Source of the DNA: a virus
DNA length: 64,000 nucleotides
Strand: one strand, 5' to 3'
IMG/VR virus record: IMGVR_UViG_3300032334_001923
Coordinates: 1-64,000 of that record
Below the pieces are notes generated by a model. It worked only from the letters and a program-made list of their open reading frames with translations. It was not told the DNA's origin and made no database searches. Positions 3 through 43,751 of the stretch are shown here, piece after piece; within the stretch, counting starts at the first letter, position 1; each line of letters starts with the position of its first letter. The translations under genes and the position numbers were made by a program.

Positions 3-362
3 GTTAACGGGTCTTCTGGAACATCAGGAAGCTCGGGATCTAGTGGATCTTCAGGAAGCTCTGGATCTTCTGGAACAAGAGGATCTTCTGGAACCTCGGG
101 TAGCTCAGGATCTAGTGGATCTTCAGGAAGCTCTGGATCTGCAGGAACGTCTGGAGTTAACGGGTCTTCTGGAACATCTGGAACTTCAGGATCTAGTGGT
201 TTATCTGGTCTAGATGGAACAGCAGGATCTTCTGGAACTTCAGGCTCTTCAGGAACCTCAGGTAGCAGAGGATCTAGTGGATCTTCAGGAAGCTCAGGAT
301 CTTCTGGAAGCTCAGGATCTTCTGGAACATCAGGATCTGCTGGAACCTCAGGAGCTGGAGGA
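3..362 (+). repeat. Coding 9-nt-period low-complexity repeat encoding (G-S/T/A-S)n
   Basis: Recurrent ggatcttctggaac/tcaggaagctc units with synonymous variation. Confidence 0.95.
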
Positions 363-881
363 TCAGCATATCCATCTTTTCAAGGCACAGTAGATGCTGG
401 AGATTATTATTCTATTGATTTCTTCACGCTCTTTAATGGATTGACTTGGGATACTTGGACGTTCCAAAACTTCTCTGCTGGATTTGTGATAGACTATGCT
501 ATTTCAGCAGGCAACTATTCAGGAGATCCTGGAAATAACTTCTGGAGAATATCTAAAAGAGCTGGTCAAATTCATGGGTATATTGATAATTTTGGTGGAT
601 ATGGAGGCGGAATTGCTCCCATTCCAACTCCTGCCAATTGGACGCCGTATGCTGACCAATACGCAGTCCAATCATATGACGTGAATTCAAGATCTCTCCC
701 ATCAGGACCTCCGCAGTACACTTGGTATGGGGATCAATTCACCGATATATTAAACGATTCTGTTAGACTTTTCTGTACTATCGATATAGCTGTAACTGGA
801 TATCCTACACTTATTATAGAAAATAGATCAACAGCTCAAATTTGGTATAATATTCAGGTTAATAGGTATATAAATCTATAA
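3..881 (+). CDS. 5'-truncated fibre/virion protein with Gly-Ser-Ser/Thr triplet (collagen-like) repeats and an aromatic-rich C-terminal domain
   Basis: Frame 3 is open from base 3 (VNGSSGTSGSSGSSG...) through the called 441..881 ORF with no stop; the start lies upstream of the window. Confidence 0.8.
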   Translation, partial: VNGSSGTSGSSGSSGSSGSSGSSGTRGSSGTSGSSGSSGSSGSSGSAGTSGVNGSSGTSGTSGSSGLSGLDGTAGSSGTSGSSGTSGSRGSSGSSGSSGSSGSSGSSGTSGSAGTSGAGGSAYPSFQGTVDAGDYYSIDFFTLFNGLTWDTWTFQNFSAGFVIDYAISAGNYSGDPGNNFWRISKRAGQIHGYIDNFGGYGGGIAPIPTPANWTPYADQYAVQSYDVNSRSLPSGPPQYTWYGDQFTDILNDSVRLFCTIDIAVTGYPTLIIENRSTAQIWYNIQVNRYINL

Positions 882-921: not shown

Positions 922-3054
922 ATGCCAACCCCTTTTTATTCCCAAACCGGACCCACATATAGAGACAGGATGTCGGTAAATCAGTCTCTCAAAGTTAAAG
1001 ACTCCATCTTTTCAGGGGAAGAGATTTTATTGATTGAGGATAACGTTACGACTATTAGAGCCTCTTTTTTTGGAAATCCCCAACAATTTCGTGCGGCATA
1101 TAAGAGAAGCAGAATTAATTGGTATCTAGCCCAGCTCTCTTATAAGGATGTCAGATCCCCAATTTGGTTTAGAGCAATCTCTGTTTTTAGGGGGAATAAT
1201 ACCGCAGCTGGTGATTTTACTACTTACTCTAAAAGACATGTTATATTAGAGAAACCCTTTGCACTTTTTGATTGGACATCTATCGGGGATGCCTTTGCAA
1301 ACTGGAAGTCAACTTTTGATAACGGAGCCGAGAGATTTAGCGAGGCCTCTCTGTATATTCAGCTTTACATTCCATGTAACGGACTCATAGAACCCCCACA
1401 TATTAAAGCACTGGTCAACACATCCTATCAGGATTTAGTTCCAACGTGGGAATCCGAGCCTTCATATCAGACGCATTACACCAGATGGTTTAAGATTGGA
1501 AATCTAACTGGCTGGCCTGGACTAGTGGGAGGATGGGCCAGTTGGATAGCTGATCTTAATAACAACGGCCAAAGCTTAGGAAACGTTATTCTTGACTGTG
1601 TGGGCTCATCAAAGCCATTCGGACTGGATAATAGTTATTACTCTGCACAAAACTGCTGGGAGGATCTCTGGACTGTTATGAGTGATAATTATTCTTCAGA
1701 TATTCAAAATACAGATTGGCAAGATATATTTTTCTATAACATCTATCTCGAGGAGAAGGGCAGGATCTTTAAAAAACCCATTTCACCTATCAGAGGATTC
1801 AAGTACGAGGCCAGACCGGTTCCTCAAAATGGACAGACTGGCTATGTGCCAGGATCTAGTAGATTTATGATCTTTGCATCTTTTAGACCTGCAATAGGAG
1901 GAAGTGACTTCTGTAAGTTTGAGAGAACTTGGACCTATGTATACGATGACACAGGTAGGCCCGTTATTAATACCGGACAAACTATTCCTTACGTCTTCCA
2001 AAAACTCACTTACCGAATGACAGAATCGGATGAGGTGCTTTGTCTTAAACAGAGTTTCCAGAGTTATCTCGGGGGTGAACCCAGATACGCCTGGGATTGG
2101 TTTTCAAGTGAGCAGTATAATACAGAGTATTACAATCCTAAAGACCCTTTTAATACCCAATTCTATTCTGCAGTCTATTCTACCTATGATAGATTTAATT
2201 ATGGAGGAGGTCTTCAGCTAACCCCATATTCAGCAGCTTGCTATGCAGTGAAGTTAGTCCCAGAGGAGCCTGCGGATTGGGGACCTGGTGGTGCTAATTG
2301 GCTGAATGTAATAGCAGACCTAAACACCAGGGCGGAAGAGAAATCCGGGCACGTCCCCCAATATCTACTTGATAACCCAGGAACTGTCGATCCCCGGGTT
2401 GGATTTATTTTAAGTGCCGAGTATTACGATATCCGGGATCTTGTTGACATCTTCAACGGTTATGGTTTAAACAATCAGTATTGCATAACTGTTGGTTATC
2501 AGTTTAGATTTGCTCTTTTTCCGGATAAGGCCACGTCATTGATCTATAATAGACCACAGGAGGCTTCAACTATATCCGGCGGACTAGGTGGAATTATGAC
2601 TTTCAAAGAGGAGAGATTCTCTGTGCCTTTTTGGGTATCCCCTTACACTCCAGCCGATCCTAAAGCACCTCTTGGAACTTCTACTATCCCTGGATTTGTT
2701 AATAGAGGTATGAACTCAGATGAGATAAGACTATATTCCCTTTTTTTGAACACAGGGCCATTCCCAATATTAATAAAGCATAAAAACCACATTATGTCTA
2801 AAATGAGACCAGGGAACGTTGAGATCAGATTCTGTACGTGGAAGAGCTATGATTACACATCAGCCCAGAATGCTAACGGGTGGTCAACTATAGATTATTA
2901 CGATGCCCAACCTAAGGCAGAATTCGGGAGATTTGCCAACAAGAAGCTGATCTTAAAAAAATACGGAAAGAACTTAACCTTTCACTTGGTGTATGAAGGT
3001 AGTTCACCTGATCATTTATTGCCACAGTACATCGAAGTGAACTACCCAGGATAA
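922..3054 (+). CDS. Hypothetical virion protein, paralog A (710 aa)
   Basis: Shares long blocks with 3073..5184 (LYIQLYIPCNGLIEPPHI, YLEEKGRIFKKPISPIRGFKYE, KMRPGNVE). Confidence 0.6.
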   Translation: MPTPFYSQTGPTYRDRMSVNQSLKVKDSIFSGEEILLIEDNVTTIRASFFGNPQQFRAAYKRSRINWYLAQLSYKDVRSPIWFRAISVFRGNNTAAGDFTTYSKRHVILEKPFALFDWTSIGDAFANWKSTFDNGAERFSEASLYIQLYIPCNGLIEPPHIKALVNTSYQDLVPTWESEPSYQTHYTRWFKIGNLTGWPGLVGGWASWIADLNNNGQSLGNVILDCVGSSKPFGLDNSYYSAQNCWEDLWTVMSDNYSSDIQNTDWQDIFFYNIYLEEKGRIFKKPISPIRGFKYEARPVPQNGQTGYVPGSSRFMIFASFRPAIGGSDFCKFERTWTYVYDDTGRPVINTGQTIPYVFQKLTYRMTESDEVLCLKQSFQSYLGGEPRYAWDWFSSEQYNTEYYNPKDPFNTQFYSAVYSTYDRFNYGGGLQLTPYSAACYAVKLVPEEPADWGPGGANWLNVIADLNTRAEEKSGHVPQYLLDNPGTVDPRVGFILSAEYYDIRDLVDIFNGYGLNNQYCITVGYQFRFALFPDKATSLIYNRPQEASTISGGLGGIMTFKEERFSVPFWVSPYTPADPKAPLGTSTIPGFVNRGMNSDEIRLYSLFLNTGPFPILIKHKNHIMSKMRPGNVEIRFCTWKSYDYTSAQNANGWSTIDYYDAQPKAEFGRFANKKLILKKYGKNLTFHLVYEGSSPDHLLPQYIEVNYPG

Positions 3055-3072
3055 CCTTAATAAAAATATACA

Positions 3073-5184
3073 ATGCCAGTCACATTTTCAAGTATAGGAG
3101 TCACATCCAGAGATTATAAATACATTAATAACTCTGTTAAGGTAAAGGATTCAGTTTTCTCAGGAGAGGAGATCCTTCTCTTCGAGGATAATGTTTTCAC
3201 TGGTAGAAGATTTTACCCTTCTGAGCAGGGGTTAAGCTCCCCCAACATCTGGATGACATTTATGAAGAGATCTAGAATTATGTGGTACTATAATACCTAT
3301 AATTCTAATGCCGAATCTCCCATATGGTTTAGAGCTGTTACTGTGATGCAGGGAAACGTTGTACTGGGATATGAAACTTTTAGTAAAAGACATGTTCTCC
3401 TAGAAAGGCCTCTCTCAAGTTTCAATTTTTCTGCCGTTCGTACGGCCTGTGTGGATTGGGTTCAAAACATATTCGACAATGGAGGAAGACGTGATAATAA
3501 CTTTTCGCTCTATATTCAGCTCTATATTCCGTGTAACGGTCTTATTGAACCTCCACATATTGCTTCACTGGTTAACACCTCTTATCAGGATCTCTCCCCA
3601 ACTTGGGAGGCTGTGGTTTCCTATTCTTCCCACTATACCAGATGGTACAATTGGGGTAACTTAACATCATTCAATGGTATATTTTACCATTGGCAACCTA
3701 GGATATCTAGCCTAGGTCCTGCTTCTTTCTTCGGTTCAATTTATAAATACATTGATAGTGATGTTGGTGGTGGGAATGGTCTATTATGGGGAAGGGATTA
3801 CTCTACATATTCACCATTTACACTTTGGATATCATGGTGGCAGTGGTTTAGTAATCTTTTTGAAGAGGTGGATCTTTGGGATTTTTTAGGTGCAAACTTA
3901 TATCTGGAGGAGAAAGGCAGAATTTTTAAAAAACCGATTTCCCCAATTAGAGGATTCAAGTACGAGTATCCAAATAGACGCACCCTTTATGGAGGAGGAC
4001 AGTATCCACAAATATTTGGCAGCGTTACTCTAGTTCATAACAACTGGAATATATTTTCATTGGATTGTCCGCAGCTTGGCAATCCTGCTCTTGGTACTAT
4101 TTGGAATTTCACGCAAGATTCTAAGCAGGGTAGATCTTATAATAATCTAAATTACGAGCCAGTTAGCAACTACCAAAAGCTCACTTATAGAATGACACAG
4201 TCTCCTGATGTCATCACGGTAAAACAGGCAACGACTTCATCGGGAGGCCCAAATTATGCTTGGGAGGTGATTGACAGTCGGGCTAATAAGAATTATCTCC
4301 CCCATGATCCCTTTAATTTAAACGCCAATTACCAAAACGGTTATAGCGCCGACAACCGCTATAGTTATGGAGGAGGTCTAAATCTAACACCATACTCTGC
4401 AGCTTGTTTTATTGTTCAATTATGTGGTGATATAGATATCAATCAGCTTAATACTCTCCTTAATGAATCAGCTGAGGCCTACTCGGGACACTTGCCTCAA
4501 ATAACAAACCTCTCTCCGAGTATTCTATATGGATTTGTGGTTAGTGCGGAGTACTATGATCTAAATAGTCTTCTGGATGTGTTAAACACTATAGTTCTGC
4601 CCAATCTAAACGGAGTAAGAATATGGCAGGGTTACTACTTTAAACTGGCTCTTTTTCCAGACAAAGCCACATCTTTGGTTTACACCCTACCTGCCGAGGT
4701 TTCTAAATCTTTATTGGGTGGAGACCCAGGTGTTAATAGTAGATCACATATTCTCGGAGCTCTCTTAACTTTCAAAGACGAGAGAATGACCGTCCCAATG
4801 TGGACTTATTCAAGATTAGCTTATCCATCTAAAGCTCCGATGCAGAATTTTTCTAATCTGAATTCAGCAGAGATCAGACTAGGTAATCTAGTTGGTGGTT
4901 ATATTGGGTTACCTATAAACGATAAAAGAGGTTTTTTTAACAAAATGAGACCGGGTAATGTTGAGATGCGATTCTGCACTTTTAAGCCCAATTGGTATAC
5001 ATCTTCAACAAATATGAATTCAGAATCTCCCTTTGATCAAAATCGTAATGAATTCGGAAGACTGGCAGATAAAAAACTCATTTTAAAAAGATATGGAAAA
5101 AATCTAACTTTCCATGTGGTTCTTGATAAAAGTCCCTCTGATGTACTTCTACCGCAAAGTGTTGAAGTCTACTATCCTGTATAG
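3073..5184 (+). CDS. Hypothetical virion protein, paralog B (703 aa)
   Basis: Tandem paralog of 922..3054. Confidence 0.6.
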   Translation: MPVTFSSIGVTSRDYKYINNSVKVKDSVFSGEEILLFEDNVFTGRRFYPSEQGLSSPNIWMTFMKRSRIMWYYNTYNSNAESPIWFRAVTVMQGNVVLGYETFSKRHVLLERPLSSFNFSAVRTACVDWVQNIFDNGGRRDNNFSLYIQLYIPCNGLIEPPHIASLVNTSYQDLSPTWEAVVSYSSHYTRWYNWGNLTSFNGIFYHWQPRISSLGPASFFGSIYKYIDSDVGGGNGLLWGRDYSTYSPFTLWISWWQWFSNLFEEVDLWDFLGANLYLEEKGRIFKKPISPIRGFKYEYPNRRTLYGGGQYPQIFGSVTLVHNNWNIFSLDCPQLGNPALGTIWNFTQDSKQGRSYNNLNYEPVSNYQKLTYRMTQSPDVITVKQATTSSGGPNYAWEVIDSRANKNYLPHDPFNLNANYQNGYSADNRYSYGGGLNLTPYSAACFIVQLCGDIDINQLNTLLNESAEAYSGHLPQITNLSPSILYGFVVSAEYYDLNSLLDVLNTIVLPNLNGVRIWQGYYFKLALFPDKATSLVYTLPAEVSKSLLGGDPGVNSRSHILGALLTFKDERMTVPMWTYSRLAYPSKAPMQNFSNLNSAEIRLGNLVGGYIGLPINDKRGFFNKMRPGNVEMRFCTFKPNWYTSSTNMNSESPFDQNRNEFGRLADKKLILKRYGKNLTFHVVLDKSPSDVLLPQSVEVYYPV

Positions 5185-5191
5185 ATATATA
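5184..5191 (+). promoter_or_regulatory. Putative late promoter GATATATA
   Basis: Exact motif, followed by a ~125-nt structured region rather than a long ORF. Confidence 0.55.
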
Positions 5192-5329
5192 GGACAATGC
5201 GCAACTCATCATACATTATATCTATGTGGCGCGGTAAATGAAGCTTCGACCTTCGAAATACAAAGTGGCTTCGATAAACGGGGTTTCGATCTGACTTTAC
5301 AACCAGTCTCCCCGTTATTTTTTTTTTTT
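5192..5329 (+). ncRNA. Candidate structured late small RNA (or 14-aa leader ORF 5197..5241)
   Basis: Lies between two GATATATA motifs; three predicted stems and a terminal T-run. Confidence 0.35.
5277..5329 (+). terminator. Intrinsic terminator-like hairpin
   Basis: AACGGGG...CCCCGTT stem (inner GACT/AGTC) followed by a run of 12 T. Confidence 0.65.
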
Positions 5330-5337
5330 GATATATA
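5330..5337 (+). promoter_or_regulatory. Putative late promoter GATATATA
   Basis: 16 nt before ATG 5354. Confidence 0.7.
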
Positions 5338-5353
5338 GTTAAATTGATATAAA

Positions 5354-5941
5354 ATGCCAACAGACGGTAAAAAAGTAAGAAGACAGGCGGCAAGACACAC
5401 CGGAAGATACGTTGCATACGGAAGTGCAAATGCACTGGGACACTGGCCTGAACCCTCTGATTTCGGAGACAGAATTCTTTTTGTTAACGCAGAAGGTGTT
5501 ATGGGGGGAAATGATGACTACTGGCCGGTTGAGTACGCTAGACAACATCATGAGTGGAAACCGGTTACTGCCGCATATGCTTTTGTGGCTGAGTTTGCAA
5601 ACACTGTATCTGATGCTAAGTTAAAGACTAACATCGTTCCTATTCAGTCAGGCGATGGAGTCATAGATCTTTTAAATCCCGTACATTTCAACTGGAACAG
5701 TGTGTCTAAAAGAGATCAGGATATTCTAGAATCTGGATTTATAGCACAAGAGGTTGAGCAGATTCTTCCCTGTGCTGTTCATGAGATTAATAATCCTCAG
5801 ATTGGAACGAAGACAAAAATATTGGACTACCACAAGATAATACCTCATCTAGTTAAATACACAAAGGATCTCTCTGCAAAAGTTTCAGACCTAGAATCAA
5901 GACTTGCAGCTCTTGAATCCCAAATTTCTAATCCATCTTAA
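5354..5941 (+). CDS. Small tail-fibre-type protein with C-terminal intramolecular chaperone (peptidase S74) domain
   Basis: SDAKLK autocleavage motif, LNPVHFNW, GFIAQEVEQILP, DYHKIIPHLV, C-terminal coiled coil. Confidence 0.88.
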   Translation: MPTDGKKVRRQAARHTGRYVAYGSANALGHWPEPSDFGDRILFVNAEGVMGGNDDYWPVEYARQHHEWKPVTAAYAFVAEFANTVSDAKLKTNIVPIQSGDGVIDLLNPVHFNWNSVSKRDQDILESGFIAQEVEQILPCAVHEINNPQIGTKTKILDYHKIIPHLVKYTKDLSAKVSDLESRLAALESQISNPS

Positions 5942-5946
5942 ACCCC

Positions 5947-5976
5947 GAAATCTTTACGTTTTTTATCTCTATAAAA
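5947..5976 (+). promoter_or_regulatory. Putative middle (phage ECF sigma) promoter
   Basis: GAAAT-N17-CTATAAAA. Confidence 0.65.
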
Positions 5977-5990
5977 GATAAAAGCAAAAG

Positions 5991-6284
5991 ATGGAAAATC
6001 AAGCACCTTTACAGGAAAATCAAATTAAAATGTCAGACGAGCTTATCCTAGAGATCCAAGCTCTTAGAGACGAATTGACCCAAAATGTGGTTAGAATCGG
6101 AAGACTGAATGTTCAGCTTTCTTTTTATCGTAAGGATATGGAGATCATTAATAATGAGCTCAACTCTCTTTATCAGGCTGCAGAATCTATTTCTATTAAA
6201 GAAGACGACATCCAAAGAAAAGTTGTTGAACAGTACGGTGGTGGTAAATTAGATTTTGAAACTGGAATTTTTACTAAAGAGTAA
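5991..6284 (+). CDS. Hypothetical coiled-coil protein
   Basis: 97-aa ORF with heptad pattern, ending YGGGKLDFETGIFTKE. Confidence 0.6.
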   Translation: MENQAPLQENQIKMSDELILEIQALRDELTQNVVRIGRLNVQLSFYRKDMEIINNELNSLYQAAESISIKEDDIQRKVVEQYGGGKLDFETGIFTKE

Positions 6285-6290
6285 TAATCG

Positions 6291-7274
6291 TTGGAGGAGA
6301 TAAAAAACATAGAACAAGATAGTAGTGGTGTGATTGTTTATATCACGCCACATCTTTCTACCGGAGGCCTTCCCCAATATCTCTTAAAGAAAATAGAGAG
6401 GTTCAGCAGATTTTCAACTATATACTGTGTCGAGTATTCGTACTATGGTGCTTCGTATGTCGTTCAGAGAGATAAGATATCTAGATTATTAGGTGATAGA
6501 TTTATATCATTAGGAGAAAAATCCGATTTGATTAAACATCTCAAAGAAATAAATCCGGATATCGTCCACTTCGAGGAGATAGTCGAAACATTTGTTGATG
6601 ATGAGATCCTATCTCAGATTTACAGAGATGATAGAAAATATTACATCTGTGAAACGTGTCATAGCTCAGATATATCCCCATCGATAAAAAGATTTTATCC
6701 CGATAAATTCATTATGGTTTCTCCGTGGATTAAGAATAAATTCGAAGTCCTTAATATTCCGTCTGAGATTCTTGAATATCCCATTGAGAAATTTACTTCA
6801 AGAAGGGACCTGGCTATTAGATCTCTGAGCTTGGACGTAAGAAAGAAACACGTAATCAACGTAGGTTTATTCACTTCGGGTAAAAATCAAAGCGAGCTTA
6901 TCGAATACGCTAGAGCACTAGCTAATCTGCCTATAGAGTTTCATTTTATCGGAAATCAAGCACCAAATTTTTCTGACTACTGGGGTCCTTTAATGAATAA
7001 TCTTCCTCCTAACTGCAGAATATGGGGCGAAAGACCTGATGTTGAATTATTCTATCAGATTGCTGATCTCTTTGTTTTCACCTCTAATTTCGAATTGAAT
7101 CCTTTGTGTGTTAAAGAGTCACTCTCATGGGGAAATAAGATACTATTAAAACCTCTTGAAACTTATATGTCTATCTATGACGATAATCCAAATGTTGGAT
7201 ATCTGACAGATGACAAGAACTTAAACGTGAGCATGATTCTTCAATCATTAGAACTTGTTAAAAAAATAGATTAA
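6291..7274 (+). CDS. GT-B glycosyltransferase (GT4-like)
   Basis: PHLSTGGLPQYL N-terminal motif; ADLFVFTSNFELNPLCVKESLS (E-x7-E signature). Confidence 0.85.
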   Translation: MEEIKNIEQDSSGVIVYITPHLSTGGLPQYLLKKIERFSRFSTIYCVEYSYYGASYVVQRDKISRLLGDRFISLGEKSDLIKHLKEINPDIVHFEEIVETFVDDEILSQIYRDDRKYYICETCHSSDISPSIKRFYPDKFIMVSPWIKNKFEVLNIPSEILEYPIEKFTSRRDLAIRSLSLDVRKKHVINVGLFTSGKNQSELIEYARALANLPIEFHFIGNQAPNFSDYWGPLMNNLPPNCRIWGERPDVELFYQIADLFVFTSNFELNPLCVKESLSWGNKILLKPLETYMSIYDDNPNVGYLTDDKNLNVSMILQSLELVKKID

Positions 7275-7275
7275 G

Positions 7276-8472
7276 ATGTTTGAAATAAACCCTAAGGGAT
7301 TCTCAGTTTACTCAGACCTTTTAAATGGTTCATTAGAGAAGAAAAGCTCTATGCCATCCTTTGTATACTCTTTTAATGGCTGCACCAGAGTTGATGTCAC
7401 TGCATCAGGTTTTAAAAACCTCTCTTTTGTTGCCAATTTTTTTGAAGAGAATAACCATATCTACTCTTGCACACTAGGATCTGGAATGTTTGGAAACATT
7501 TTAAAAGCATGGGTTTCTGATTGGAGAATAGAGATGAAAGACTCGGATGGTAAAATAATTGACACGCATTCTTTCCTAGAAGATTTAAAAAAATCTAAAA
7601 TTCTAATCAGATTTGATAGTAGTTCATTAGGAGACACCATAGCATGGATGGGGTGTGTTAAACCCTTTATGGAGAAATATTCTCCTGGGTTTGTTTACGT
7701 CTCAACTTTCTACAACGATCTTTTTAAATCAGAATATCCTGAAATTGAATTTATAGAACCCAACACAAACTACAGAGATGCAAAGATCATCATTGGATTA
7801 GGTTGGTACACAGAGTCCGATAGAAATGTGCATAAGAGAGATCCAAGAACTATACCTCTTCAATCCGTTGCAGAGGATATACTGGGTCTTTCTTTAGATA
7901 AAGAGCAAAGACCTAGAATTTCTAAAACCTTTAATCCTCCTCCTGTGGAAGGAAGATATGTATGTATTGCAACAGAGTCAACCGCTGGAGCCAAGTATTG
8001 GCATCATCCCGGAGGTTGGCAAAAACTCGTCGATCTCCTAAACACACTAGGTTATTCTGTTGTCGTTATACAAAAACAGTCAACCACTCTTAAAAACGTT
8101 ATAGACAGAACTGGAGATCTGCCTCTAAACGAGAGGATTAGCGATCTTCTTGGTTGCGATTTCTTTATAGGGATAGGCTCTGGACTTTCATGGCTTGCTT
8201 GGGGTTTGGATATTCCTGTTGTTATGATATCTGGATTTAGTCAACCATTTTGTGAATTCTCAGATAAAACTCTTAGAATAATCAACACCAAAGTTTGCCA
8301 CGGATGCTTCAATAATCCGGATCATAAATTTGACAAAGGAGATTGGTGGTGGTGCCCAGAACATAAAAACACATCTAGACACTTCGAATGCACCAAATCT
8401 ATTACTCCTCAGGAGGTTTTAAGACAAATCTTAAATTCAAATATAGCTGAATGGAAACATTCTGCTTCTTAA
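7276..8472 (+). CDS. aah: Aah/TibC-family autotransporter O-heptosyltransferase
   Basis: FDSSSLGDTIAWM, FIGIGSGLSWLAW, ISGFS, and a C-x2-C-x15-C-x11-C iron-finger-like motif at 8296..8391. Confidence 0.8.
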   Translation: MFEINPKGFSVYSDLLNGSLEKKSSMPSFVYSFNGCTRVDVTASGFKNLSFVANFFEENNHIYSCTLGSGMFGNILKAWVSDWRIEMKDSDGKIIDTHSFLEDLKKSKILIRFDSSSLGDTIAWMGCVKPFMEKYSPGFVYVSTFYNDLFKSEYPEIEFIEPNTNYRDAKIIIGLGWYTESDRNVHKRDPRTIPLQSVAEDILGLSLDKEQRPRISKTFNPPPVEGRYVCIATESTAGAKYWHHPGGWQKLVDLLNTLGYSVVVIQKQSTTLKNVIDRTGDLPLNERISDLLGCDFFIGIGSGLSWLAWGLDIPVVMISGFSQPFCEFSDKTLRIINTKVCHGCFNNPDHKFDKGDWWWCPEHKNTSRHFECTKSITPQEVLRQILNSNIAEWKHSAS

Positions 8473-8495
8473 AGAGAATGGCTTTCTCTAGGGAT

Positions 8496-8503
8496 GATAT
8501 ATA
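8496..8503 (+). promoter_or_regulatory. Putative late promoter GATATATA
   Basis: 20 nt before ATG 8524. Confidence 0.7.
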
Positions 8504-8523
8504 AGAGAAAGTACTAGAGGAAG

Positions 8524-11013
8524 ATGAGTTTTTATCCAGAAGATAAATTTCCAAAAGAAGGACAACCCGTTTATAACGGAAACGGAGAACAATATGATCT
8601 CACTGATCAACGATTTTCCTATCAGGATGGTTTAGAAAACACCAAAAAATACAAGGAATCCTCTGTAAATAATCTGTTTTCTACACCAGGGGCTGCTATG
8701 GCCAGAGGTCAGCAGATAGGATGTGGGGGATATCACGAGGTTATAATAGACGGTGCCACTTACTATAAACCCTGTGAATCTGCTAGCTATTACGATCTCA
8801 GAATGGAGCAGCTTGATAGTGCTCTCAATTTCACATATATCGGAAGCCACCGTGTTCTTACCTGGGATAAGCCTTTTGAAAATGTTACAACATTTAATGG
8901 GTGGATTATAGATGCGGCAAATAGCAATAGTAGTGGTCCTATAATAAATGCTGACGACATAGCTATAGATTTCAGATACAGCATAGACGGAAAAACATGG
9001 TCTTTATGGGTAAACGTTGGAACAGCTCTTGGTGGATTAACTAATGAGTTTTCCCAACTTTTCCCAATTTCTCTAGATCCTGAAAATAAATTCTATCCCG
9101 AGTTTAGATTTACCTCAGTTTTAAGAAACGCGGATGGAACGATTATAGTTACCCCGGATGAACCGATAGATCCTAGCGTGGTTATAGTGAGTTTTGAACT
9201 CGACTTAGATTATGCTCCAGTTCCAGAGACCCTGATAACTAGACCTGCTCCAGTTTGCTCAAATGAGATTTCAAATAGGCCTGTAGTTATAAGTGATTGT
9301 AAATTCACATTCAATCCTTATAATGTAAATAAGGCTTTAAATATGTATAAGGATTTAAGTCTAATGATCAACAAAGTATTTGGACTGGACGCTAATTATT
9401 ACTCAATCCAACCCCAGGCAAGAGGAAAGGATGTGGTGCTAAAAGAATACACTTTATTTAACGTTGTTTCTGAGAAGTGTATGAAGATCATGGTTCCTCA
9501 GAATCAATTTCCCGATAATAAGATCAACTTTGATCCGTTCGGTCTACAGTTTGAAGAGCCTTTTGAAATACAGATTGATAAGAGATATTTTGAAAGTATT
9601 TTCGGTAAGGGATCTCAGCCTAGGAAGAGAGACATAATTTATTTTCCTCTAACAAACAGAATTTATGAGATAAACTCAACTTATTTGTTTAGAGATTTTA
9701 TGCAATCCCCAGTTTACTTTAAGATAGAGCTCAGAAAATACAGTCCGAAGAGTAACACTTACTTCCAGGATCCTGCATATAAGGAAGAGCTTGACGGAAT
9801 AACCCTAACAACTTCTGAACTATTTGGAGAGGAGGTTAAATCTGAAGAAATAAAATCTTCTAAGCCACAACAATACGCAACTACTATTACTCAGATGTCT
9901 CAGGATCCGATCAGATCCTATGTTTATAACGAGCTTCCTATTATAGAATATGATCTTAATAACAACTGGACTATAGTATTAAATCACTACTACGATCTTT
10001 CTGAAGCTTTTGCAGATGTTTCAGAATTTGAATCGGATCCTAATAGATATAAAAATGCTGTTAGATATAAGTATCTTCCAAAGCTCCTTGCAAACCAAGA
10101 ACTTGCATTTACATGCTGGTTTAGTCTTAGAAATTTTTACGACAACTCCAAACTTTCTAAAAGAGGATATCCTATATTAAATATGACATTGGAATCATAT
10201 GATGAGGACTATCTAAACTTTAGCACATATCCGAAAAGACATAGACTTGAGAAATGGATTTCTTATGCTTCAAACCCGGAGGGATACGTAGCAATTAAAG
10301 GTGATTCGATTCACTCAGGCGGATATGAGGTTTTAGATGTGATTGATGAATATAGATTTTCTGTTAAAAACAATTCAACAACTTTCTCCGAAGGATCAAT
10401 TTCTTGGAGAATGCAGAAAGCACAGAATAGAAATCTTATAAGTGGACTTTATATAAATGAGTTTGAAGAATTTGAAGGATTCAGGGTGGATCTAATCCAC
10501 TCCGGAGTTATTGACGATCTAACCAATCCTTTCTTAGGTCAGGGTAGTATAGTTATAAGATTGAACGATAGAATCATAAACTCTCCACTTCAATTCGAAC
10601 CTGAATATGGTGAATGGTATGGAGTTGTGGTAAATGTTTCTAACGTATACAAACAGATCTCTACAAATATATGGGCTTTAACATACGATCCTGTAGACCC
10701 TGATCAGCAAAGTAGCAAACTACAAAAAGTTCATGAAGATGCTAGATTCTATAACGACATCATAGTTTTTGCTGCTCCTCCTGATGTCGAAAAGAACACA
10801 GATAGTGCTTTCTATGGAACCGATAACAATTCTTATAAAATATTCACTGGTCCTATTTACCTCAGCAATGTAAGACTGTTTAAGAATATGATAGATATAG
10901 ATACCCAATCAACAGTTCTAAATCAGAATATTGTTAGAGATGCTCAATTAGCACACATTATTGATAACGCAAAACCATTACTAAATATTCCTAAGTTCGC
11001 TAGAAATAGATAA
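8524..11013 (+). CDS. Extended T4 gp14-like neck/head-tail connector protein
   Basis: Central PRKRDIIYFPLTNRIYEI..YFKIELRKY resembles gp14; lies upstream of the terminase genes. Confidence 0.55.
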   Translation: MSFYPEDKFPKEGQPVYNGNGEQYDLTDQRFSYQDGLENTKKYKESSVNNLFSTPGAAMARGQQIGCGGYHEVIIDGATYYKPCESASYYDLRMEQLDSALNFTYIGSHRVLTWDKPFENVTTFNGWIIDAANSNSSGPIINADDIAIDFRYSIDGKTWSLWVNVGTALGGLTNEFSQLFPISLDPENKFYPEFRFTSVLRNADGTIIVTPDEPIDPSVVIVSFELDLDYAPVPETLITRPAPVCSNEISNRPVVISDCKFTFNPYNVNKALNMYKDLSLMINKVFGLDANYYSIQPQARGKDVVLKEYTLFNVVSEKCMKIMVPQNQFPDNKINFDPFGLQFEEPFEIQIDKRYFESIFGKGSQPRKRDIIYFPLTNRIYEINSTYLFRDFMQSPVYFKIELRKYSPKSNTYFQDPAYKEELDGITLTTSELFGEEVKSEEIKSSKPQQYATTITQMSQDPIRSYVYNELPIIEYDLNNNWTIVLNHYYDLSEAFADVSEFESDPNRYKNAVRYKYLPKLLANQELAFTCWFSLRNFYDNSKLSKRGYPILNMTLESYDEDYLNFSTYPKRHRLEKWISYASNPEGYVAIKGDSIHSGGYEVLDVIDEYRFSVKNNSTTFSEGSISWRMQKAQNRNLISGLYINEFEEFEGFRVDLIHSGVIDDLTNPFLGQGSIVIRLNDRIINSPLQFEPEYGEWYGVVVNVSNVYKQISTNIWALTYDPVDPDQQSSKLQKVHEDARFYNDIIVFAAPPDVEKNTDSAFYGTDNNSYKIFTGPIYLSNVRLFKNMIDIDTQSTVLNQNIVRDAQLAHIIDNAKPLLNIPKFARNR

Positions 11014-31306: not shown

Positions 31307-32920
31307 ATGGCTGGTTTTGTAAATAATAATAACCCCTCAGAATCTCCGGTAATACAGAGAATAAGAGAATCCGTAAAGAGGCTTAGTACCTTTGGGATGA
31401 AGTATGATGACATGGTCATCAGAAACTCCCAGGCGGTTGGGGTTACCGAGGCTGCTTTCCTAAACAAAAATAAGTCAAATGTAGAAGATGAAAGCATGCT
31501 TTGGACATTGGCCAAACAGGATATAACCACAAAGCAATTTGTCTCTTATTTTGATAAAGATTATAAGGGAAAAAGAGATTATCTTAGAAAATTTTCTCTC
31601 AATCCTGAGATAGAGTGGGTGCTTGATACAATCTGTGACGAGTCCGTTTCGTATGACCCAGCAAACTTTTTTGCATACCCTGACTTTCTAGACCTTACTG
31701 ATATAAACGAAAAGATAAAGGACGAGCTTTACGAGACTTATAAGAAAATATACGATTTCTGGGGATTCAATGATGATATCTCTGCATGGCAGTATTTTAG
31801 ACAGTTTCTTGTTGATGGGTTTTTATGCTTTGAGATAATCTATGATAATTCGGGAAAAGAAATAGTCGGATTTAAGGAGCTTGATCCTATAACAATAGTT
31901 CCTAGTGTTGAAAAACAAATAGATGGATCTTTCTTAAATACTTGGACTCAATTTCCACAAGATCCCAGAAAGAGAAGGATACTCTATGATCCTCAGGTGA
32001 TCTATATTTCTTACGCTAAAGGTAATTCAATCTCGAGAATAAGCTACATTGAGAGACTTATTAGACCTTACAATATTCTTAGAATTATAGAATATACCAG
32101 GGTTATATGGTCTGTTATGAATGCTTCTTTTAGACTTAAGATGACAGTTCCTATAGGAACTAAATCACAACAGAAAGGGCTTCAAACTCTGGGCGAGCTT
32201 ATGAGTATCTACAAGGAGGATGTTCAGTTAAATGATGATACCGGAGAACTTCTTATTGACGGAAGACCTAAAATACAGTTCTATAAGAATTATCTGATGC
32301 CTTCTGGCGTTAACGGAACTCCTACTATCGAGCCTTTAAATACCGAAGGACCTAACCTTAATGACAATCAGCCACTAAGTTATTTCTTTGATAAGTTTGT
32401 ACTTGAATCTAAAATACCTGCATCTAGATTTCATCAGCCAGACGGAGGAAACACTTCTGCTTATGCTAATGCTGCTGAGGGTTTAGATAAGGAAGAGATT
32501 AGGTTTTCTAAATTTATTTCCAGACTTAGATCTATATTCCAGGAAATCATGACCAAACCTCTTTGGGTTCAGATGGTTAAAAAACATCCCGAATTAGAAA
32601 AAGACTTTATGTTCAAGAGTCAGTTAGGTCTTGATTATTTTTCTGACAATCCCTTTAAAATAAATCAGGAGATTGACATAATAAATAAAAAGAAAGAGGC
32701 TGTTTCTTCGATGGCGGGATTAATGGGAGACGGAGAAAAAACATATTTCTCTGTTCCTTTCTTAATTGAAACATTCCTTGGATTATCTAAACAGGATATC
32801 AAGGCGAATAAAGAGGCTATAGAGAGAAGAGAAAAAAAGAAAGAAAAAGAGAGTAAAGAAGGCGAGGGAGGAGAAGAAGGTGGCGAAGAAGGAGAAGGAG
32901 GAGAAGCAGTAACATTATAA
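31307..32920 (+). CDS. gp20: Portal protein, copy 1
   Basis: PEIEWVLDTICDE, FRQFLVDG, SYIERLIRPYNILRIIE, YKNYLMP, FDKFVLESKIPASR, FSKFISRLRSIF. Confidence 0.92.
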   Translation: MAGFVNNNNPSESPVIQRIRESVKRLSTFGMKYDDMVIRNSQAVGVTEAAFLNKNKSNVEDESMLWTLAKQDITTKQFVSYFDKDYKGKRDYLRKFSLNPEIEWVLDTICDESVSYDPANFFAYPDFLDLTDINEKIKDELYETYKKIYDFWGFNDDISAWQYFRQFLVDGFLCFEIIYDNSGKEIVGFKELDPITIVPSVEKQIDGSFLNTWTQFPQDPRKRRILYDPQVIYISYAKGNSISRISYIERLIRPYNILRIIEYTRVIWSVMNASFRLKMTVPIGTKSQQKGLQTLGELMSIYKEDVQLNDDTGELLIDGRPKIQFYKNYLMPSGVNGTPTIEPLNTEGPNLNDNQPLSYFFDKFVLESKIPASRFHQPDGGNTSAYANAAEGLDKEEIRFSKFISRLRSIFQEIMTKPLWVQMVKKHPELEKDFMFKSQLGLDYFSDNPFKINQEIDIINKKKEAVSSMAGLMGDGEKTYFSVPFLIETFLGLSKQDIKANKEAIERREKKKEKESKEGEGGEEGGEEGEGGEAVTL

Positions 32921-34573: not shown

Positions 34574-35626
34574 TTGGATCCCTTTATTTTTTACAAAGAA
34601 TTTAAAAAAACAAGATCACGTAAAATAGAATCTCTATCTGATCTTAATATACTCGTAGTAGGAGACGTTATGCTAGATCATTATATCTACGGATCAGCAA
34701 CAAGAATTTCTCCAGAAGCACCAGTTCCCGTAGTTTTAAAAAAAGAAGAAAAGTTTTTTCTGGGTGGAGCGGGTAATGTTTTTTCCAATATAATATCACT
34801 GGGAGGCAAATCTGAGATCCTAACTGTTCTTGGGAATGATGAAGGGTCTCAAAAGATCTTATCTATACTAAAAGACCTAACTTGTAAAAACCAGTCTCTT
34901 ATTTTCTATTCTGACGACAGGAAAACAACAGTAAAGTCAAGAGTAATGTCAGGAGGACACCAGATGTTAAGAATAGATGATGAAACGACTAACCCCATAG
35001 ATGTCCAATTGGAGGATTTGATATTAACTGAATTCTCTTTATGTTGCGGAAATTACTCGGGAGTGATACTTCAGGATTATAATAAGGGTGTTCTAACCCC
35101 TAGAGTTATAGAAGGAATAATAGAAAAATGTAAGGAGAAAAAAATTCCAGTTATAGTAGATCCTAAAAAGAATAACATACAATCTTACAGAGGATCCACC
35201 ATTTTTAAACCTAATTTTTCGGAGTTTTGCAATATAGTTGGAAAAGAAATAGACCCTAACGATCAAAGCTCTATTTCTAAATATTCCTCACTTCTAAGAA
35301 AAGAAATGGATGTAGAAAATCTGGTTATAACAATGTCAGATCTTGGTATTTATTTTTCCAGCTCATTTTGCGATTCTTTTAGTCCAGCATACGAAGTTAA
35401 GGTATCAGATGTGTCCGGAGCAGGAGACACTGTTTTGGCTATGCTGTCCCTTTGTTATCTAGCAGGGACAGATCCTAAAAATATGCTATCCCTATGTAAT
35501 CTTGCGGGGTCCATAGCATGTAGTAAAGTCGGTGCAGTATCTGTCAAGTTATCAGAAATAGAAAATCACCCCGAGATGAAAAAGAAGATAAGTGAAGAAA
35601 GAATTTTTATTTTTGATAATAATTAA
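34574..35626 (+). CDS. hldE: D-glycero-beta-D-manno-heptose-7-phosphate kinase (HldE/RfaE domain I, PfkB family)
   Basis: VVGDVMLDHY..RISPEAPVPVV, GGAGNV, QDYNKGVLT, VDPK, DVSGAGDTV. Confidence 0.93.
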   Translation: MDPFIFYKEFKKTRSRKIESLSDLNILVVGDVMLDHYIYGSATRISPEAPVPVVLKKEEKFFLGGAGNVFSNIISLGGKSEILTVLGNDEGSQKILSILKDLTCKNQSLIFYSDDRKTTVKSRVMSGGHQMLRIDDETTNPIDVQLEDLILTEFSLCCGNYSGVILQDYNKGVLTPRVIEGIIEKCKEKKIPVIVDPKKNNIQSYRGSTIFKPNFSEFCNIVGKEIDPNDQSSISKYSSLLRKEMDVENLVITMSDLGIYFSSSFCDSFSPAYEVKVSDVSGAGDTVLAMLSLCYLAGTDPKNMLSLCNLAGSIACSKVGAVSVKLSEIENHPEMKKKISEERIFIFDNN

Positions 35627-42953: not shown

Positions 42954-43751
42954 GTGGATAAAGTTTTAGATTATTCTAGTTACCTGAACATCTCGGAAAG
43001 AGAGGAATCCCCATTTTATAATGATTCTTTATGTCCCAAATTATGGGTAAAGAATAATCAAGAAGACGGAAACCCCGCTTGGACTTTAGACGGGAGAGCA
43101 TCTAGAAAAATAGAAAAGATTGCAAAAGAATTCTTTTCGCATTTTTCGAGCTTGCTAAAGCAAAAAGACATCTCAGATATTCAAATAACAGGGGATCTTG
43201 CTAATTTCAGTCATACCCCCAATTCTAATCTGGATGTACACGTTCTCGTGGATCTAGATGGTATGGACGATCTGGATGCTCAGGATCTTAAAAACGAGAT
43301 AGCTTTTTTAAAATCAAACTGGGATCTAAAAAATTCCAAAAAGATAAGAGGAAGAGACGTTGATTTCTACATTCAAAATGCGAAAGATCCTCATGATTCA
43401 TCAGGTCTTTATTCTGTTCTAAACGGTGAGTGGATTAAAGCTCCTTCTCTAGAATCTCCTTCTTTTGATGAAAGAGACGTGGCTAAAAAGTATGATGCTA
43501 TTGCTCACGAGATAGACTCTCTAGAAACCCAAATAGAAGTAACCAACTCACCGGATAGAGTTAAATTCCTTAGAGATAGAGCCACTGAACTTAAAATAAA
43601 AATCCAACAAATGAGAAAGGATGCAATAACAAAGAGTGGGCAACCCTCAGTTGGCTCAAGTATATTCAAGATGCTTAGAAAAGAAGGATATATAGAAAAA
43701 TTGATAGATGTTCTATCTAATTCCTACGATAAAATTTATAAAGAAGACTAA
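42954..43751 (+). CDS. Pol-beta-superfamily nucleotidyltransferase-like protein with atypical active site
   Basis: ITGDLANF...SNLDVHVLVD, GRDVDFYIQ, GLYSVLNGEWIKAP, helical C-terminus FKMLRKEGYIEKL. Confidence 0.65.
   Translation: MDKVLDYSSYLNISEREESPFYNDSLCPKLWVKNNQEDGNPAWTLDGRASRKIEKIAKEFFSHFSSLLKQKDISDIQITGDLANFSHTPNSNLDVHVLVDLDGMDDLDAQDLKNEIAFLKSNWDLKNSKKIRGRDVDFYIQNAKDPHDSSGLYSVLNGEWIKAPSLESPSFDERDVAKKYDAIAHEIDSLETQIEVTNSPDRVKFLRDRATELKIKIQQMRKDAITKSGQPSVGSSIFKMLRKEGYIEKLIDVLSNSYDKIYKED
43687..43694 (+). promoter_or_regulatory. Putative late promoter GATATATA (gene-internal)
   Basis: 59 nt before ATG 43754. Confidence 0.55.

What the first reader, a model, noticed from the sequence alone, without database searches (positions are those of the whole stretch)
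5947..8472. Candidate phage-encoded protein O-heptosylation (virion glycosylation) system
Seen: one operon with a GT4 glycosyltransferase and an Aah/TibC-like enzyme (SLGDTIAWM and a four-Cys C-x2-C-x15-C-x11-C motif), immediately downstream of fibre genes. An HldE heptose-7-P kinase lies at 34574, and a Gly-Ser-Ser repeat fibre at 3..881. Known: Aah/TibC transfer heptose from ADP-heptose to Ser residues of the autotransporters AIDA-I and TibA and carry an iron-finger; HldE makes the precursor. Inference: the phage heptosylates its own Ser/Thr-rich virion proteins, giving a glycan coat that could affect adsorption, protease resistance or host recognition.
Basis: partly seen in the sequence, partly recalled or inferred. 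Interest (0 to 1): 0.88.

Follow-up and report, generated by a model that had tools for sequence, protein, structure and literature searches.

The report
Phage TibC-like heptosyltransferase for serine-collagen fibres
A large uncultured freshwater phage carries a true relative of the bacterial enzyme that sugar-coats adhesins (TibC/Aah), a partner sugar transferase and a heptose-pathway kinase. Comparison with many phages and bacteria suggests it coats the phage's own proline-free Gly-Ser/Thr-Ser fibres with heptose, but no experiment has tested this.

Summary
ORF 7276-8472 matches TIGR04414 (Aah/TibC protein O-heptosyltransferases, BAHT) at 273.9 bits, above the cut-off of 200. It keeps the catalytic Asp, the sugar-binding residues and the C-x2-C-x15-C-x11-C iron finger. 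TibC is its best match by sequence and by fold, far ahead of WaaC/WaaF. ORF 6291-7274 is a GT4-type glycosyltransferase, 34574-35626 is an HldA/HldE-type heptose-7-phosphate kinase, and 3-881 is a Gly-[Ser/Thr]-Ser collagen-like fibre.

The new evidence is comparative:
- The phage enzyme lies in a BAHT branch separate from all autotransporter-linked members.
- In bacteria, 21 of 22 loci of that branch have a secreted Ser/Thr Gly-X-Y repeat gene next door, against 2 of 37 in the autotransporter branch.
- In phages the enzyme travels with GT4, and in some genomes is fused to it and to a methyltransferase. Serine-collagen fibres are often nearby.
- Heptose-pathway genes lie next to the enzyme in other phages. 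Among complete relatives they occur only in genomes that have the enzyme.

This phage's own gmhA is a truncated remnant, and the enzyme lacks most of the thumb that builds TibC's dodecamer. The best reading is cytoplasmic O-heptosylation of the phage's own fibres, at about 0.6. This scan has already noted the same enzyme-fibre pairing on other DNA, in at least 71 genomes.

The parts
7276..8472 (+). BAHT-family (TibC/Aah-like) protein O-heptosyltransferase, 398 aa. Residues: D120 catalytic base; T236, K240, R287, W306 sugar binding; C341/C344/C360/C372 iron finger; shortened thumb.
   Evidence: TIGR04414 at 273.9 bits, cut-off 200. TibC 4rap E 4e-52, with residue-by-residue alignment. AF2 model pLDDT 75, Foldseek best match TibC at E 1.5e-29. 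Residue conservation across 103 sequences.
6291..7274 (+). GT4-type (GT-B, Glycos_transf_1) glycosyltransferase, 327 aa, TTG start. It is the constant partner of the phage BAHT.
   Evidence: Pfam PF00534 at 31.6 bits, cut-off 26.4. AF2 pLDDT 89, with best folds BshA, HepE, PglA and PimA. Co-occurs with BAHT in at least 14 of 22 IMG/VR loci and in 33 of 34 BAHT-positive lineage loci. Fused to BAHT and an FkbM methyltransferase in one 959-aa protein in a complete relative.
5991..6284 (+). 97-aa coiled-coil-like protein just upstream of GT4. It is a conserved backbone gene of the lineage, not specific to the glycosylation cassette.
   Evidence: No Pfam or PHROG match. Homologue present in 34/34 BAHT-positive and 14/16 BAHT-negative lineage loci.
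3..881 (+). C-terminal part of a collagen-like fibre, cut by the contig start. It has 40 Gly-[Ser/Thr]-Ser triplets without Pro, then a 170-aa non-repeat domain. It is the most likely acceptor.
   Evidence: Pfam Collagen at 62.9 bits. PHROG tail-fibre families, E 1e-18. Triplet composition. A second fibre of the same kind fills the contig's other end, at genome 125272-127287 (L192:473-2488), with Collagen at 217.6 bits.
5354..5941 (+). 195-aa protein with the intramolecular chaperone domain of endosialidase and tail fibres (Peptidase_S74), but no fibre shaft of its own.
   Evidence: PF13884 at 50.1 bits. PHROG tail-fibre C-termini. In relatives L005 and L026 the same domain ends a collagen-like fibre upstream of the GT cluster.
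922..5184 (+). Two paralogous 710- and 703-aa proteins (922-3054 and 3073-5184) of unknown nature. They are not shown to be fibres and have no homologues in relatives' loci.
   Evidence: No Pfam, NCBIfam or PHROG match. No hit in loci L003-L024. Atlas gives nothing usable, and its own model has pLDDT 0.28.
34574..35626 (+). [quoted passage not shown] It stands alone, with no adenylyltransferase domain.
   Evidence: TIGR02198 at 311.3 bits (cut-off 345), next family about 60 bits. HldA 4e84 at E 1.3e-47. Orthologues score 295-324 bits in 10 relatives (an 11th is split); 11 of the 12 lineage contigs with a kinase, the window's included, also have BAHT.

Best explanation
The GT4 gene and the TibC-like gene form a two-enzyme cassette that O-glycosylates the phage's own proline-free Gly-[Ser/Thr]-Ser collagen-like fibre proteins in the host cytoplasm, before the fibres join the virion.

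The TibC-like enzyme would transfer heptose from ADP-heptose to Ser/Thr hydroxyls, with D120 as the general base. The GT4 enzyme would then add a further sugar, or act on the same chains in parallel. The phage kinase would raise the supply of heptose-1,7-bisphosphate, and the host would provide the remaining steps.

Shown here: family membership, catalytic residues, gene linkage and phylogenetic distribution. Inferred: the acceptor, the sugar, the order of the two transferases, and the biological effect (stabilising or shielding a Pro-free triple helix or brush-like fibre).
For: 1. It is a true BAHT. TIGR04414 scores above its cut-off. TibC is the best match by sequence and fold. The catalytic Asp, the Lys, the Trp and all four Cys are invariant in 103 of 103 family members examined.
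2. A tree of 103 BAHTs splits with support 100. One branch holds every AIDA-like-autotransporter-linked gene, including E. coli Aah. The other holds every viral gene plus bacterial genes that are never autotransporter-linked.
3. In that second branch, 21 of 22 bacterial or MAG loci carry Ser/Thr-rich Gly-X-Y ORFs within about 1-2 kb of the BAHT, against 2 of 37 in the first branch (Fisher p 1e-12). Most of these ORFs in the 14 loci examined in detail start with a signal peptide or lipobox, so they are real genes. One lies in a complete Methylobacter chromosome among housekeeping genes and matches Pfam Collagen.
4. Ser/Thr collagen-like ORFs lie within 10 kb of the BAHT in the window's contig and in L005, L006, L010, L019 and L024. 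The same holds for about 20 of 39 BAHT-positive loci of the window's own lineage. Many contigs, this one included, break inside such repeats at their ends.
5. GT4 and BAHT are fused with an FkbM methyltransferase into one 959-aa protein in complete relatives. Other relatives add GT2s, sulfotransferases and an APS kinase at the same site. This is the make-up of a glycan-building island beside structural genes.
6. Evidence for heptose. In L020 the BAHT is followed directly by an HldC-like adenylyltransferase and an HldA-like kinase; in L021 it is followed by an HldC-like gene. Among 100%-complete relatives, kinase, gmhA or HldC-like genes occur in 3 of 3 BAHT-positive genomes (the hit in G006 is a weak 54-bit HldC-like match) and 0 of 2 BAHT-negative genomes.
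Against: - There is no biochemical or proteomic evidence for any member of this branch.
- Within the window's lineage, the link between BAHT and a nearby Ser/Thr collagen gene is weak (20/39 against 5/18, p 0.15). BAHT-positive complete genome G007 shows no such repeat by pattern search, although its contig ends about 3 kb beyond the cassette.
- The kinase is not universal: G006 and the 95%-complete G003 have BAHT without any clear heptose gene. Kinase against BAHT over 26 contigs gives p 0.07.
- This phage's gmhA is truncated to 87 of about 200 residues. No adenylyltransferase, GmhB or HldD was found in the contig.
- Known BAHT acceptors are beta-helices, not Gly-X-Y repeats.
- The Arg equivalent to TibC R286 is lost in 21 of 65 members of the phage branch, though it is kept here. 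The donor may therefore differ across the branch.
Confidence: 0.6

Rival explanations
1. The cassette glycosylates other phage proteins rather than the Gly-Ser/Thr-Ser fibres. Candidates are the 1613-aa protein with a pure Thr/Ser tract, the sheath or neck proteins next door, or the two orphan 700-aa proteins.
For: The cassette sits directly before the neck, terminase and sheath genes in the whole lineage. Genome ORF 77447-82288 holds a 30-residue stretch made only of Thr and Ser. The link with a nearby Ser/Thr collagen gene within the lineage is not significant.
Against: The neck, sheath and terminase genes are equally present in BAHT-negative relatives. The orphan proteins are absent from relatives that keep the cassette. 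Only Gly-X-Y Ser/Thr repeats follow the enzyme across phages and bacteria.
Confidence: 0.15
2. The enzymes act on host molecules during infection. Targets could be host Gly-Ser/Thr-Ser lipoproteins, adhesins or envelope glycans, with the effect of blocking superinfection or remodelling the cell surface.
For: Bacterial members of the same branch sit beside small secreted lipoproteins with such repeats, so a host could offer similar acceptors. Phages are known to carry envelope-modifying glycosyltransferases (review text).
Against: The phage encodes its own abundant acceptors of this kind, with at least 196 triplets in this contig. The cassette lies among late structural genes, not early or lysogeny genes. 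Relatives fuse or cluster it with fibre genes. The host is unknown.
Confidence: 0.12
3. The two transferases glycosylate phage DNA (a sugar on hydroxymethylated pyrimidine). Heptosylated 5hmC made by other phage GT-B enzymes has been reported.
For: A preprint reports phage gene clusters that add mono- and di-heptose to 5hmC using a GT-B enzyme plus a cytidylyltransferase and a kinase-like enzyme.
Against: Those enzymes resemble T4 beta-glucosyltransferase, not BAHT. No thymidylate-synthase-like gene is in the contig. In complete relatives a ThyA-family gene is present whether or not BAHT is, and no Tet/JBP gene was found, although that search rang in no control genome. The cassette is not next to any base-modification gene. 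The N-terminal barrel and iron finger, the latter a protein-binding element in TibC, are kept.
Confidence: 0.03
4. The TibC-like protein transfers a sugar other than heptose, or has a mainly structural or chaperone role for fibre assembly. The kinase would then serve an unrelated purpose.
For: Several BAHT-positive phages have no heptose-pathway gene. The Arg that binds the sugar nucleotide in TibC is replaced in a third of the branch. The residue that sets heptose stereoselectivity in TibC (Pro-300) is Gly here. The thumb needed for TibC's active dodecamer is missing.
Against: The catalytic Asp, Lys-230 and Trp-305 equivalents are invariant in all 103 sequences. The window's enzyme keeps all five TibC ligand or catalytic residues. 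HldA/HldC genes abut the enzyme in L020 and L021. Hosts with LPS heptose would supply ADP-heptose without phage genes.
Confidence: 0.1

Closest known systems
TibC-TibA and Aah-AIDA-I of E. coli (bacterial autotransporter heptosyltransferases, BAHT; TIGR04414; PDB 4rap, 4rb4)
   Same: Same protein family, above the equivalog cut-off. It shares the N-terminal beta-barrel, the GT9-like GT-B core, the catalytic Asp, the Thr/Lys/Arg/Trp ligand residues and the Cys4 iron finger with identical spacing. Like them it is a cytoplasmic enzyme encoded next to a repetitive Ser/Thr-bearing surface protein.
   Different: It lies in a separate, well-supported branch in which no member is linked to an autotransporter. 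Its neighbours are Gly-[Ser/Thr]-Ser repeat proteins, not beta-helical passengers. Gly replaces TibC Pro-300 / Aah Ser-294. It is paired with, and in relatives fused to, a GT4 enzyme. It is encoded by a phage.
Mycobacteriophage virion glycosylation (Freeman et al. 2023, as cited in PMC12619734)
   Same: Phage-encoded glycosyltransferases beside structural genes that O-glycosylate the phage's own virion proteins (summary read).
   Different: There the glycans sit on the C-termini of capsid and tail-tube subunits, and the system infects actinobacteria. Here the enzyme is a BAHT, the likely sugar is heptose, and the likely acceptors are collagen-like fibres. That paper itself was not read here.
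BclA, the glycosylated collagen-like exosporium protein of Bacillus anthracis (from my own knowledge, not tested here)
   Same: A Gly-X-Thr collagen-like filament densely O-glycosylated on its repeat hydroxyls, ending in a globular domain and forming a hair-like nap on a particle surface.
   Different: BclA repeats are rich in Pro, its sugars are rhamnose-based, and its transferases are unrelated to BAHT.
LPS heptosyltransferases WaaC/WaaF (GT9)
   Same: Same GT-B/GT9 superfamily, with ADP-heptose as donor. There is a weak Pfam PF01075 match.
   Different: These are far weaker matches (Foldseek E 6e-8 to 2e-6, TM 0.34-0.45, against 1.5e-29 and 0.69 for TibC). By TibC's published description, its N-terminal barrel and iron finger are extra modules on a WaaC-like core. 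Their acceptor is lipid A-Kdo, not protein.

Membership tests
BAHT (TIGR04414, Aah/TibC protein O-heptosyltransferases) | Score above the curated equivalog cut-off over nearly the full model | tested here: met
   273.9 bits against 200, model positions 11-371 of 374. Confirmed on the genome.
BAHT (TIGR04414, Aah/TibC protein O-heptosyltransferases) | Catalytic base Asp-110 and ligand residues Thr-226, Lys-230, Arg-286, Trp-305 (TibC numbering) | tested here: met
   D120, T236, K240, R287 and W306 align with them.
BAHT (TIGR04414, Aah/TibC protein O-heptosyltransferases) | Cys4 iron finger, C-x2-C-x15-C-x11-C | tested here: met
   C341, C344, C360 and C372 align with TibC C339/342/358/370 and are invariant in 103/103 sequences. 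Iron binding itself is not testable here.
BAHT (TIGR04414, Aah/TibC protein O-heptosyltransferases) | N-terminal flattened beta-barrel plus GT-B catalytic core | tested here: met
   The AF2 model has seven strands in residues 28-99, followed by a Rossmann-like core. Foldseek aligns 380-401 columns to TibC at TM 0.69-0.72.
BAHT (TIGR04414, Aah/TibC protein O-heptosyltransferases) | Beta-hairpin thumb that joins dimers into the dodecamer ring | tested here: not met
   The thumb region is 15 residues here and in 29 of 36 GT4-linked viral enzymes, against 24 in all 38 autotransporter-branch enzymes. The tip residues Phe-265/Val-266 have no counterpart.
BAHT (TIGR04414, Aah/TibC protein O-heptosyltransferases) | Encoded next to its autotransporter substrate | tested here: not met
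   No AIDA-like gene is in the window's contig or in any viral or second-branch locus. AIDA-like genes lie next to 20 of 38 first-branch genes.
BAHT (TIGR04414, Aah/TibC protein O-heptosyltransferases) | Transfers heptose from ADP-heptose to Ser/Thr of a protein | not testable with these tools
   Only indirect evidence exists: HldA/HldC neighbours in L020/L021 and co-occurrence of heptose genes with BAHT in relatives.
HldA / HldE domain I (TIGR02198, heptose-7-phosphate kinase) | Score above the curated cut-off; closest characterised relative is a heptose kinase | tested here: inconclusive
   311.3 bits is under the 345 cut-off, but the next family scores about 60 bits. The best solved relative is HldA 4e84, E 1.3e-47, followed by pseudouridine kinase at 4e-6.
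GT4 (Pfam Glycos_transf_1, retaining GT-B transferases) | Pfam match above gathering score and a GT-B fold closest to GT4 enzymes | tested here: met
   31.6 bits against 26.4. AF2 pLDDT 89. The best folds are BshA, HepE, PglA, PimA, MshA and WaaG, at E 2e-12 to 5e-9. No PDB match by sequence.
Collagen-like (Gly-X-Y) fibre proteins | Long uninterrupted Gly-X-Y run; Pro or charged pairs that stabilise the triple helix | tested here: inconclusive
   There are 40, 41 and 115 uninterrupted triplets, and Pfam Collagen scores 62.9 and 217.6 bits. However, X/Y are almost only Ser/Thr with hardly any Pro (4 residues in 196 triplets), so triple-helix formation is not assured.

The most novel reading that the evidence does not exclude
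A distinct branch of the TibC/Aah family has Pro-free Gly-[Ser/Thr]-Ser repeat proteins as its natural substrate class, not autotransporters. Bacteria would use it on small secreted lipoproteins, and large phages on virion fibres. The phages elaborate it with GT4, methyl- and sulfotransferases and their own ADP-heptose pathway genes. The result would be heptose-based glycan-coated fibres, a previously unrecognised kind of bacterial and viral glycoprotein.
Probability: 0.4. Interest if true: 0.8.

Novelty: new variant of a known kind. Interest (0 to 1): 0.66.

Why it matters
BAHT enzymes are known only as virulence-linked modifiers of autotransporter adhesins. A second branch acting on serine-collagen repeats, widespread in environmental phages and bacteria, would widen the family's substrate range and add a second kind of phage virion glycosylation beside the mycobacteriophage case.

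It would also explain how Pro-free Gly-Ser-Ser 'collagens' might be stabilised or shielded. The system has few parts (enzyme, fibre fragment, E. coli's own ADP-heptose), so it can be tested directly.

Phage genes for ADP-heptose intermediates are of further interest because these metabolites are potent signals in other settings.

Tried and rejected
- Megablast of the region against cultured phages found no match. tblastn found only Microcystis phage Mel-JY01 and three huge uncultured phages.
- PHROGs has no family for the enzyme.
- Identity of the two 700-aa proteins: nothing from Pfam, NCBIfam, PHROGs or the Atlas.
- Circularity of the contig: both ends lie in Gly-Ser-Ser repeats, but there is no exact overlap, only repeat-level similarity of 91% or less. 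This cannot be decided.
- Within-lineage association of BAHT with nearby Ser/Thr collagen is in the expected direction but not significant.
- Sigma-70 promoter and terminator scans of 5100-8700 did not exceed shuffled controls in a useful way.
- Literature searches found no paper linking TibC/Aah-type enzymes to phages or to collagen-like proteins.
- Sequencing runs: no RNA holder is listed. DNA holders are metagenomes, several of them labelled freshwater.
- The DNA-glycosylation reading was considered and rejected.
- The GT4 enzyme has no PDB match by sequence, nor does ORF 42954-43751.
Full report
**Setting.** The window is the first 64 kb of a 127,287-bp IMG/VR viral contig that CheckV rates 46% complete. 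It is a T4-like myovirus genome. It has a T4-type large terminase, a neck protein, a sheath, two tandem gp20-type portal genes, a ligase and a clamp loader, nearly all on the + strand. Its terminase is only 31-38% identical to those of huge uncultured phages, Sphingomonas phage PAU and Tenacibaculum phages. A search with its neck protein found 153 related viral contigs, 80 of which were fetched. They include complete genomes of 319-434 kb, so this is a fragment of a jumbo phage. Parts of the region occur in metagenome runs, several labelled freshwater.

**The observation.** ORF 7276-8472 matches TIGR04414, the equivalog model for Aah/TibC autotransporter O-heptosyltransferases, at 273.9 bits (cut-off 200) over almost the whole model. 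Against solved structures only TibC matches (E 4e-52); no LPS heptosyltransferase reaches E 0.01.

The alignment places D120 on TibC Asp-110. This is the residue changed to Ala in entry 4rb4 and named as the catalytic base in the TibC paper. T236, K240, R287 and W306 fall on the four ligand residues. C341/344/360/372 fall on the four iron-binding cysteines, with identical spacing. An AF2 model (pLDDT 75) has TibC as its best fold match (E 1.5e-29, TM about 0.7), against WaaF and WaaC at 6e-8 and weaker.

The other elements also hold:
- ORF 6291-7274 is a GT4-type transferase by Pfam and by fold.
- ORF 34574-35626 is an HldA-type heptose-7-phosphate kinase. It scores 311 bits, under the 345 cut-off, but has no rival family. 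HldA 4e84 matches at E 1.3e-47.
- ORF 3-881 is the end of a collagen-like fibre with 40 Gly-[Ser/Thr]-Ser triplets and no Pro in the repeat.
- The 700-aa paralogues at 922-5184 remain unidentified.

**How the enzyme differs from TibC.** This region is 15 residues here against 24 in every autotransporter-branch enzyme. TibC Pro-300 fixes selectivity for ADP-D,D-heptose, and the equivalent position is Ser in the more tolerant Aah. Here it is Gly.

**Family tree and neighbours.** I collected BAHT genes from 22 viral loci, 80 loci of the window's lineage, 80 bacterial or MAG loci and E. coli Aah beside AIDA-I. A tree of 103 sequences splits with support 100 into two branches.
- One branch holds every gene with an AIDA-like neighbour, plus a Burkholderia group.
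- The other holds every viral gene plus bacterial genes from Arenicellales, Methylococcales, Polaromonas and others, none of them autotransporter-linked.

In that second branch, 21 of 22 bacterial loci carry Ser/Thr-rich Gly-X-Y ORFs right beside the BAHT gene, against 2 of 37 in the first branch. Most of these ORFs in the 14 loci examined in detail begin with a signal peptide or lipobox, and many end in acidic tails, so they are real secreted proteins. One pair lies in a complete Methylobacter chromosome among DnaK-like, glycolate-oxidase-like and MiaB-like genes, and its repeat protein matches Pfam Collagen.

The branch split is a single evolutionary event. The pairing nevertheless persists across sub-branches only 34-45% identical, and across both viruses and bacteria, which argues for a functional tie. 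I found no paper reporting it.

**The phage side.** GT4 and BAHT form a cassette. Both occur together in at least 14 of 22 unrelated viral loci and in 33 of 34 BAHT-positive loci of the window's lineage. There they sit between a small conserved gene and the neck gene. In 16 lineage loci the cassette is missing, and replication genes lie upstream of the same small gene and neck gene. The small gene 5991-6284 is present either way, so it is backbone rather than cassette.

Relatives enlarge the island in several ways:
- Two GT2 enzymes and a DUF6445 protein.
- A 2OG-Fe(II) oxygenase, a GT2-methyltransferase and a second GT4.
- Two sulfotransferases, an APS kinase and an FkbM methyltransferase behind a collagen-plus-S74-chaperone fibre.

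In complete genomes G008 and G015, GT4, BAHT and FkbM are one 959-966-aa protein. A second form of 773-783 aa (open frames of 776-784 aa) joins a different GT4-like N-terminus to a barrel-less BAHT.

Ser/Thr collagen-like ORFs lie within 10 kb of the enzyme in many viral loci. The window's contig both begins and ends inside such genes. The last ORF (L192:473-2488, 3' open) has 41 and 115 triplets around a roughly 150-aa globular domain. Within the lineage the local association is only a trend (20/39 against 5/18). This is partly because assemblies break in these repeats. The two complete BAHT-negative genomes carry only a short Gly-X-Thr stretch, whereas G006, G008, G014 and G015 carry many repeats. 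G007 shows none, but its contig ends about 3 kb beyond its cassette.

**Which sugar.** Three lines point to heptose.
1. The ligand residues of the ADP-heptose pocket are kept.
2. In another viral sub-branch the BAHT gene is followed directly by an HldC-like adenylyltransferase and an HldA-like kinase (L020), or by an HldC-like gene (L021). A MAG contig has GT4, BAHT and a kinase-like gene in a row.
3. Heptose-pathway genes track BAHT among 100%-complete relatives:

| Genome | BAHT | Kinase | gmhA | HldC-like |
|---|---|---|---|---|
| G007 | yes | yes | yes, full length | no |
| G008 | yes | yes | yes | yes |
| G006 | yes | no | no | weak only |
| G009 | no | no | no | no |
| G010 | no | no | no | no |

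Over 26 contigs the kinase is found in 12 of 19 BAHT-positive and 1 of 7 BAHT-negative contigs, and the exception is a 24% fragment.

This phage is not self-sufficient. Its gmhA, in the same place as in relatives, stops after 87 of about 200 residues. No adenylyltransferase, GmhB or HldD is in the contig, though half of the genome is missing.

**Rivals.**
- DNA glycosylation with heptose exists in other phages, but it uses T4-beta-glucosyltransferase-like enzymes in base-modification clusters. Here no such cluster is nearby. A ThyA-family gene is present in relatives regardless of BAHT, and no Tet/JBP gene was found, though that search had no positive control.
- Action on other virion proteins, or on host envelope proteins, cannot be excluded. 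A Thr/Ser tract in genome ORF 77447-82288 is one alternative acceptor.
- A different donor sugar remains possible for parts of the branch that have lost the Arg.

This is a new variant of a known kind, a BAHT-family protein glycosylation system with a new substrate class, a new partner enzyme and a viral setting. Earlier notes of this scan describe the same enzyme-fibre pairing in at least 71 other genomes. I re-derived the pairing independently here. This window adds the heptose-pathway evidence, the decayed gmhA and the thumb deletion.

Noticed in passing
window 31307-32920 and 32931-34556: Two full-length tandem portal genes (537 and 541 aa). Both match Portal_T4 strongly, at 197 and 229 bits.
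   Followed up: partly
genome 114482-114745 (L002:1396-1659), outside the window: gmhA remnant. Only the first 87 residues remain, 69% identical to the 199-aa GmhA of relative G008 and in the same position before the gp32-like gene. The rest of the gene is deleted.
   Followed up: yes
genome 125272-127287 (L192:473-2488) and window 3-881: The contig starts and ends inside Gly-Ser/Thr-Ser collagen-like genes without an exact overlap. The assembly probably broke in these repeats. The last ORF has two repeat blocks (41 and 115 triplets) around a roughly 150-aa globular domain of unknown fold.
   Followed up: partly
genome 77447-82288, outside the window: A 1613-aa protein with a 30-residue stretch made only of Thr and Ser near residue 1413. 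It looks like a mucin-type linker and is another possible glycan acceptor.
   Followed up: no
window 42954-43751: A 265-aa protein with no Pfam or PDB match. The Atlas places it with viral clusters partly annotated NTP_transf_2 (score 0.97). Its homologues lie beside the GT4-BAHT pair in L017, L022, L024 and L124, and near the BAHT gene in L131.
   Followed up: partly
L026:3323-6731 (327,907-bp relative, GCA_013572995.1): Two sulfotransferases, an FkbM-type methyltransferase and an APS kinase lie between a collagen-plus-S74 fibre and the GT4-BAHT pair. This suggests sulfated and methylated glycans in that relative.
   Followed up: no
L199:301-3180; L202:1480-3831: Fused forms occur in complete relatives. 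One is GT4-BAHT-FkbM in a single 959-aa protein. A second type, 783 aa, joins a GT4-like N-terminus to a BAHT core that lacks the N-terminal barrel. The FkbM fusion would explain why the Mel-JY01 homologue is annotated 'methyltransferase FkbM'.
   Followed up: partly
L112 (contig CALAZP010000278.1): A contig of the same phage lineage (neck 59%, terminase 69% identical, with GT4-BAHT) is binned in a Saprospirales MAG. This is a weak hint at a Bacteroidota host.
   Followed up: no
window 5354-5941: The S74 intramolecular-chaperone domain stands alone in a 195-aa protein. In relatives it is the C-terminus of a collagen-like fibre. It may be a remnant or a trans-acting chaperone.
   Followed up: no
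window 922-3054 and 3073-5184: Two paralogous proteins of about 700 aa, rich in aromatic residues, with conserved N- and C-termini. They have no detectable relatives in the related loci or in family libraries.
   Followed up: partly
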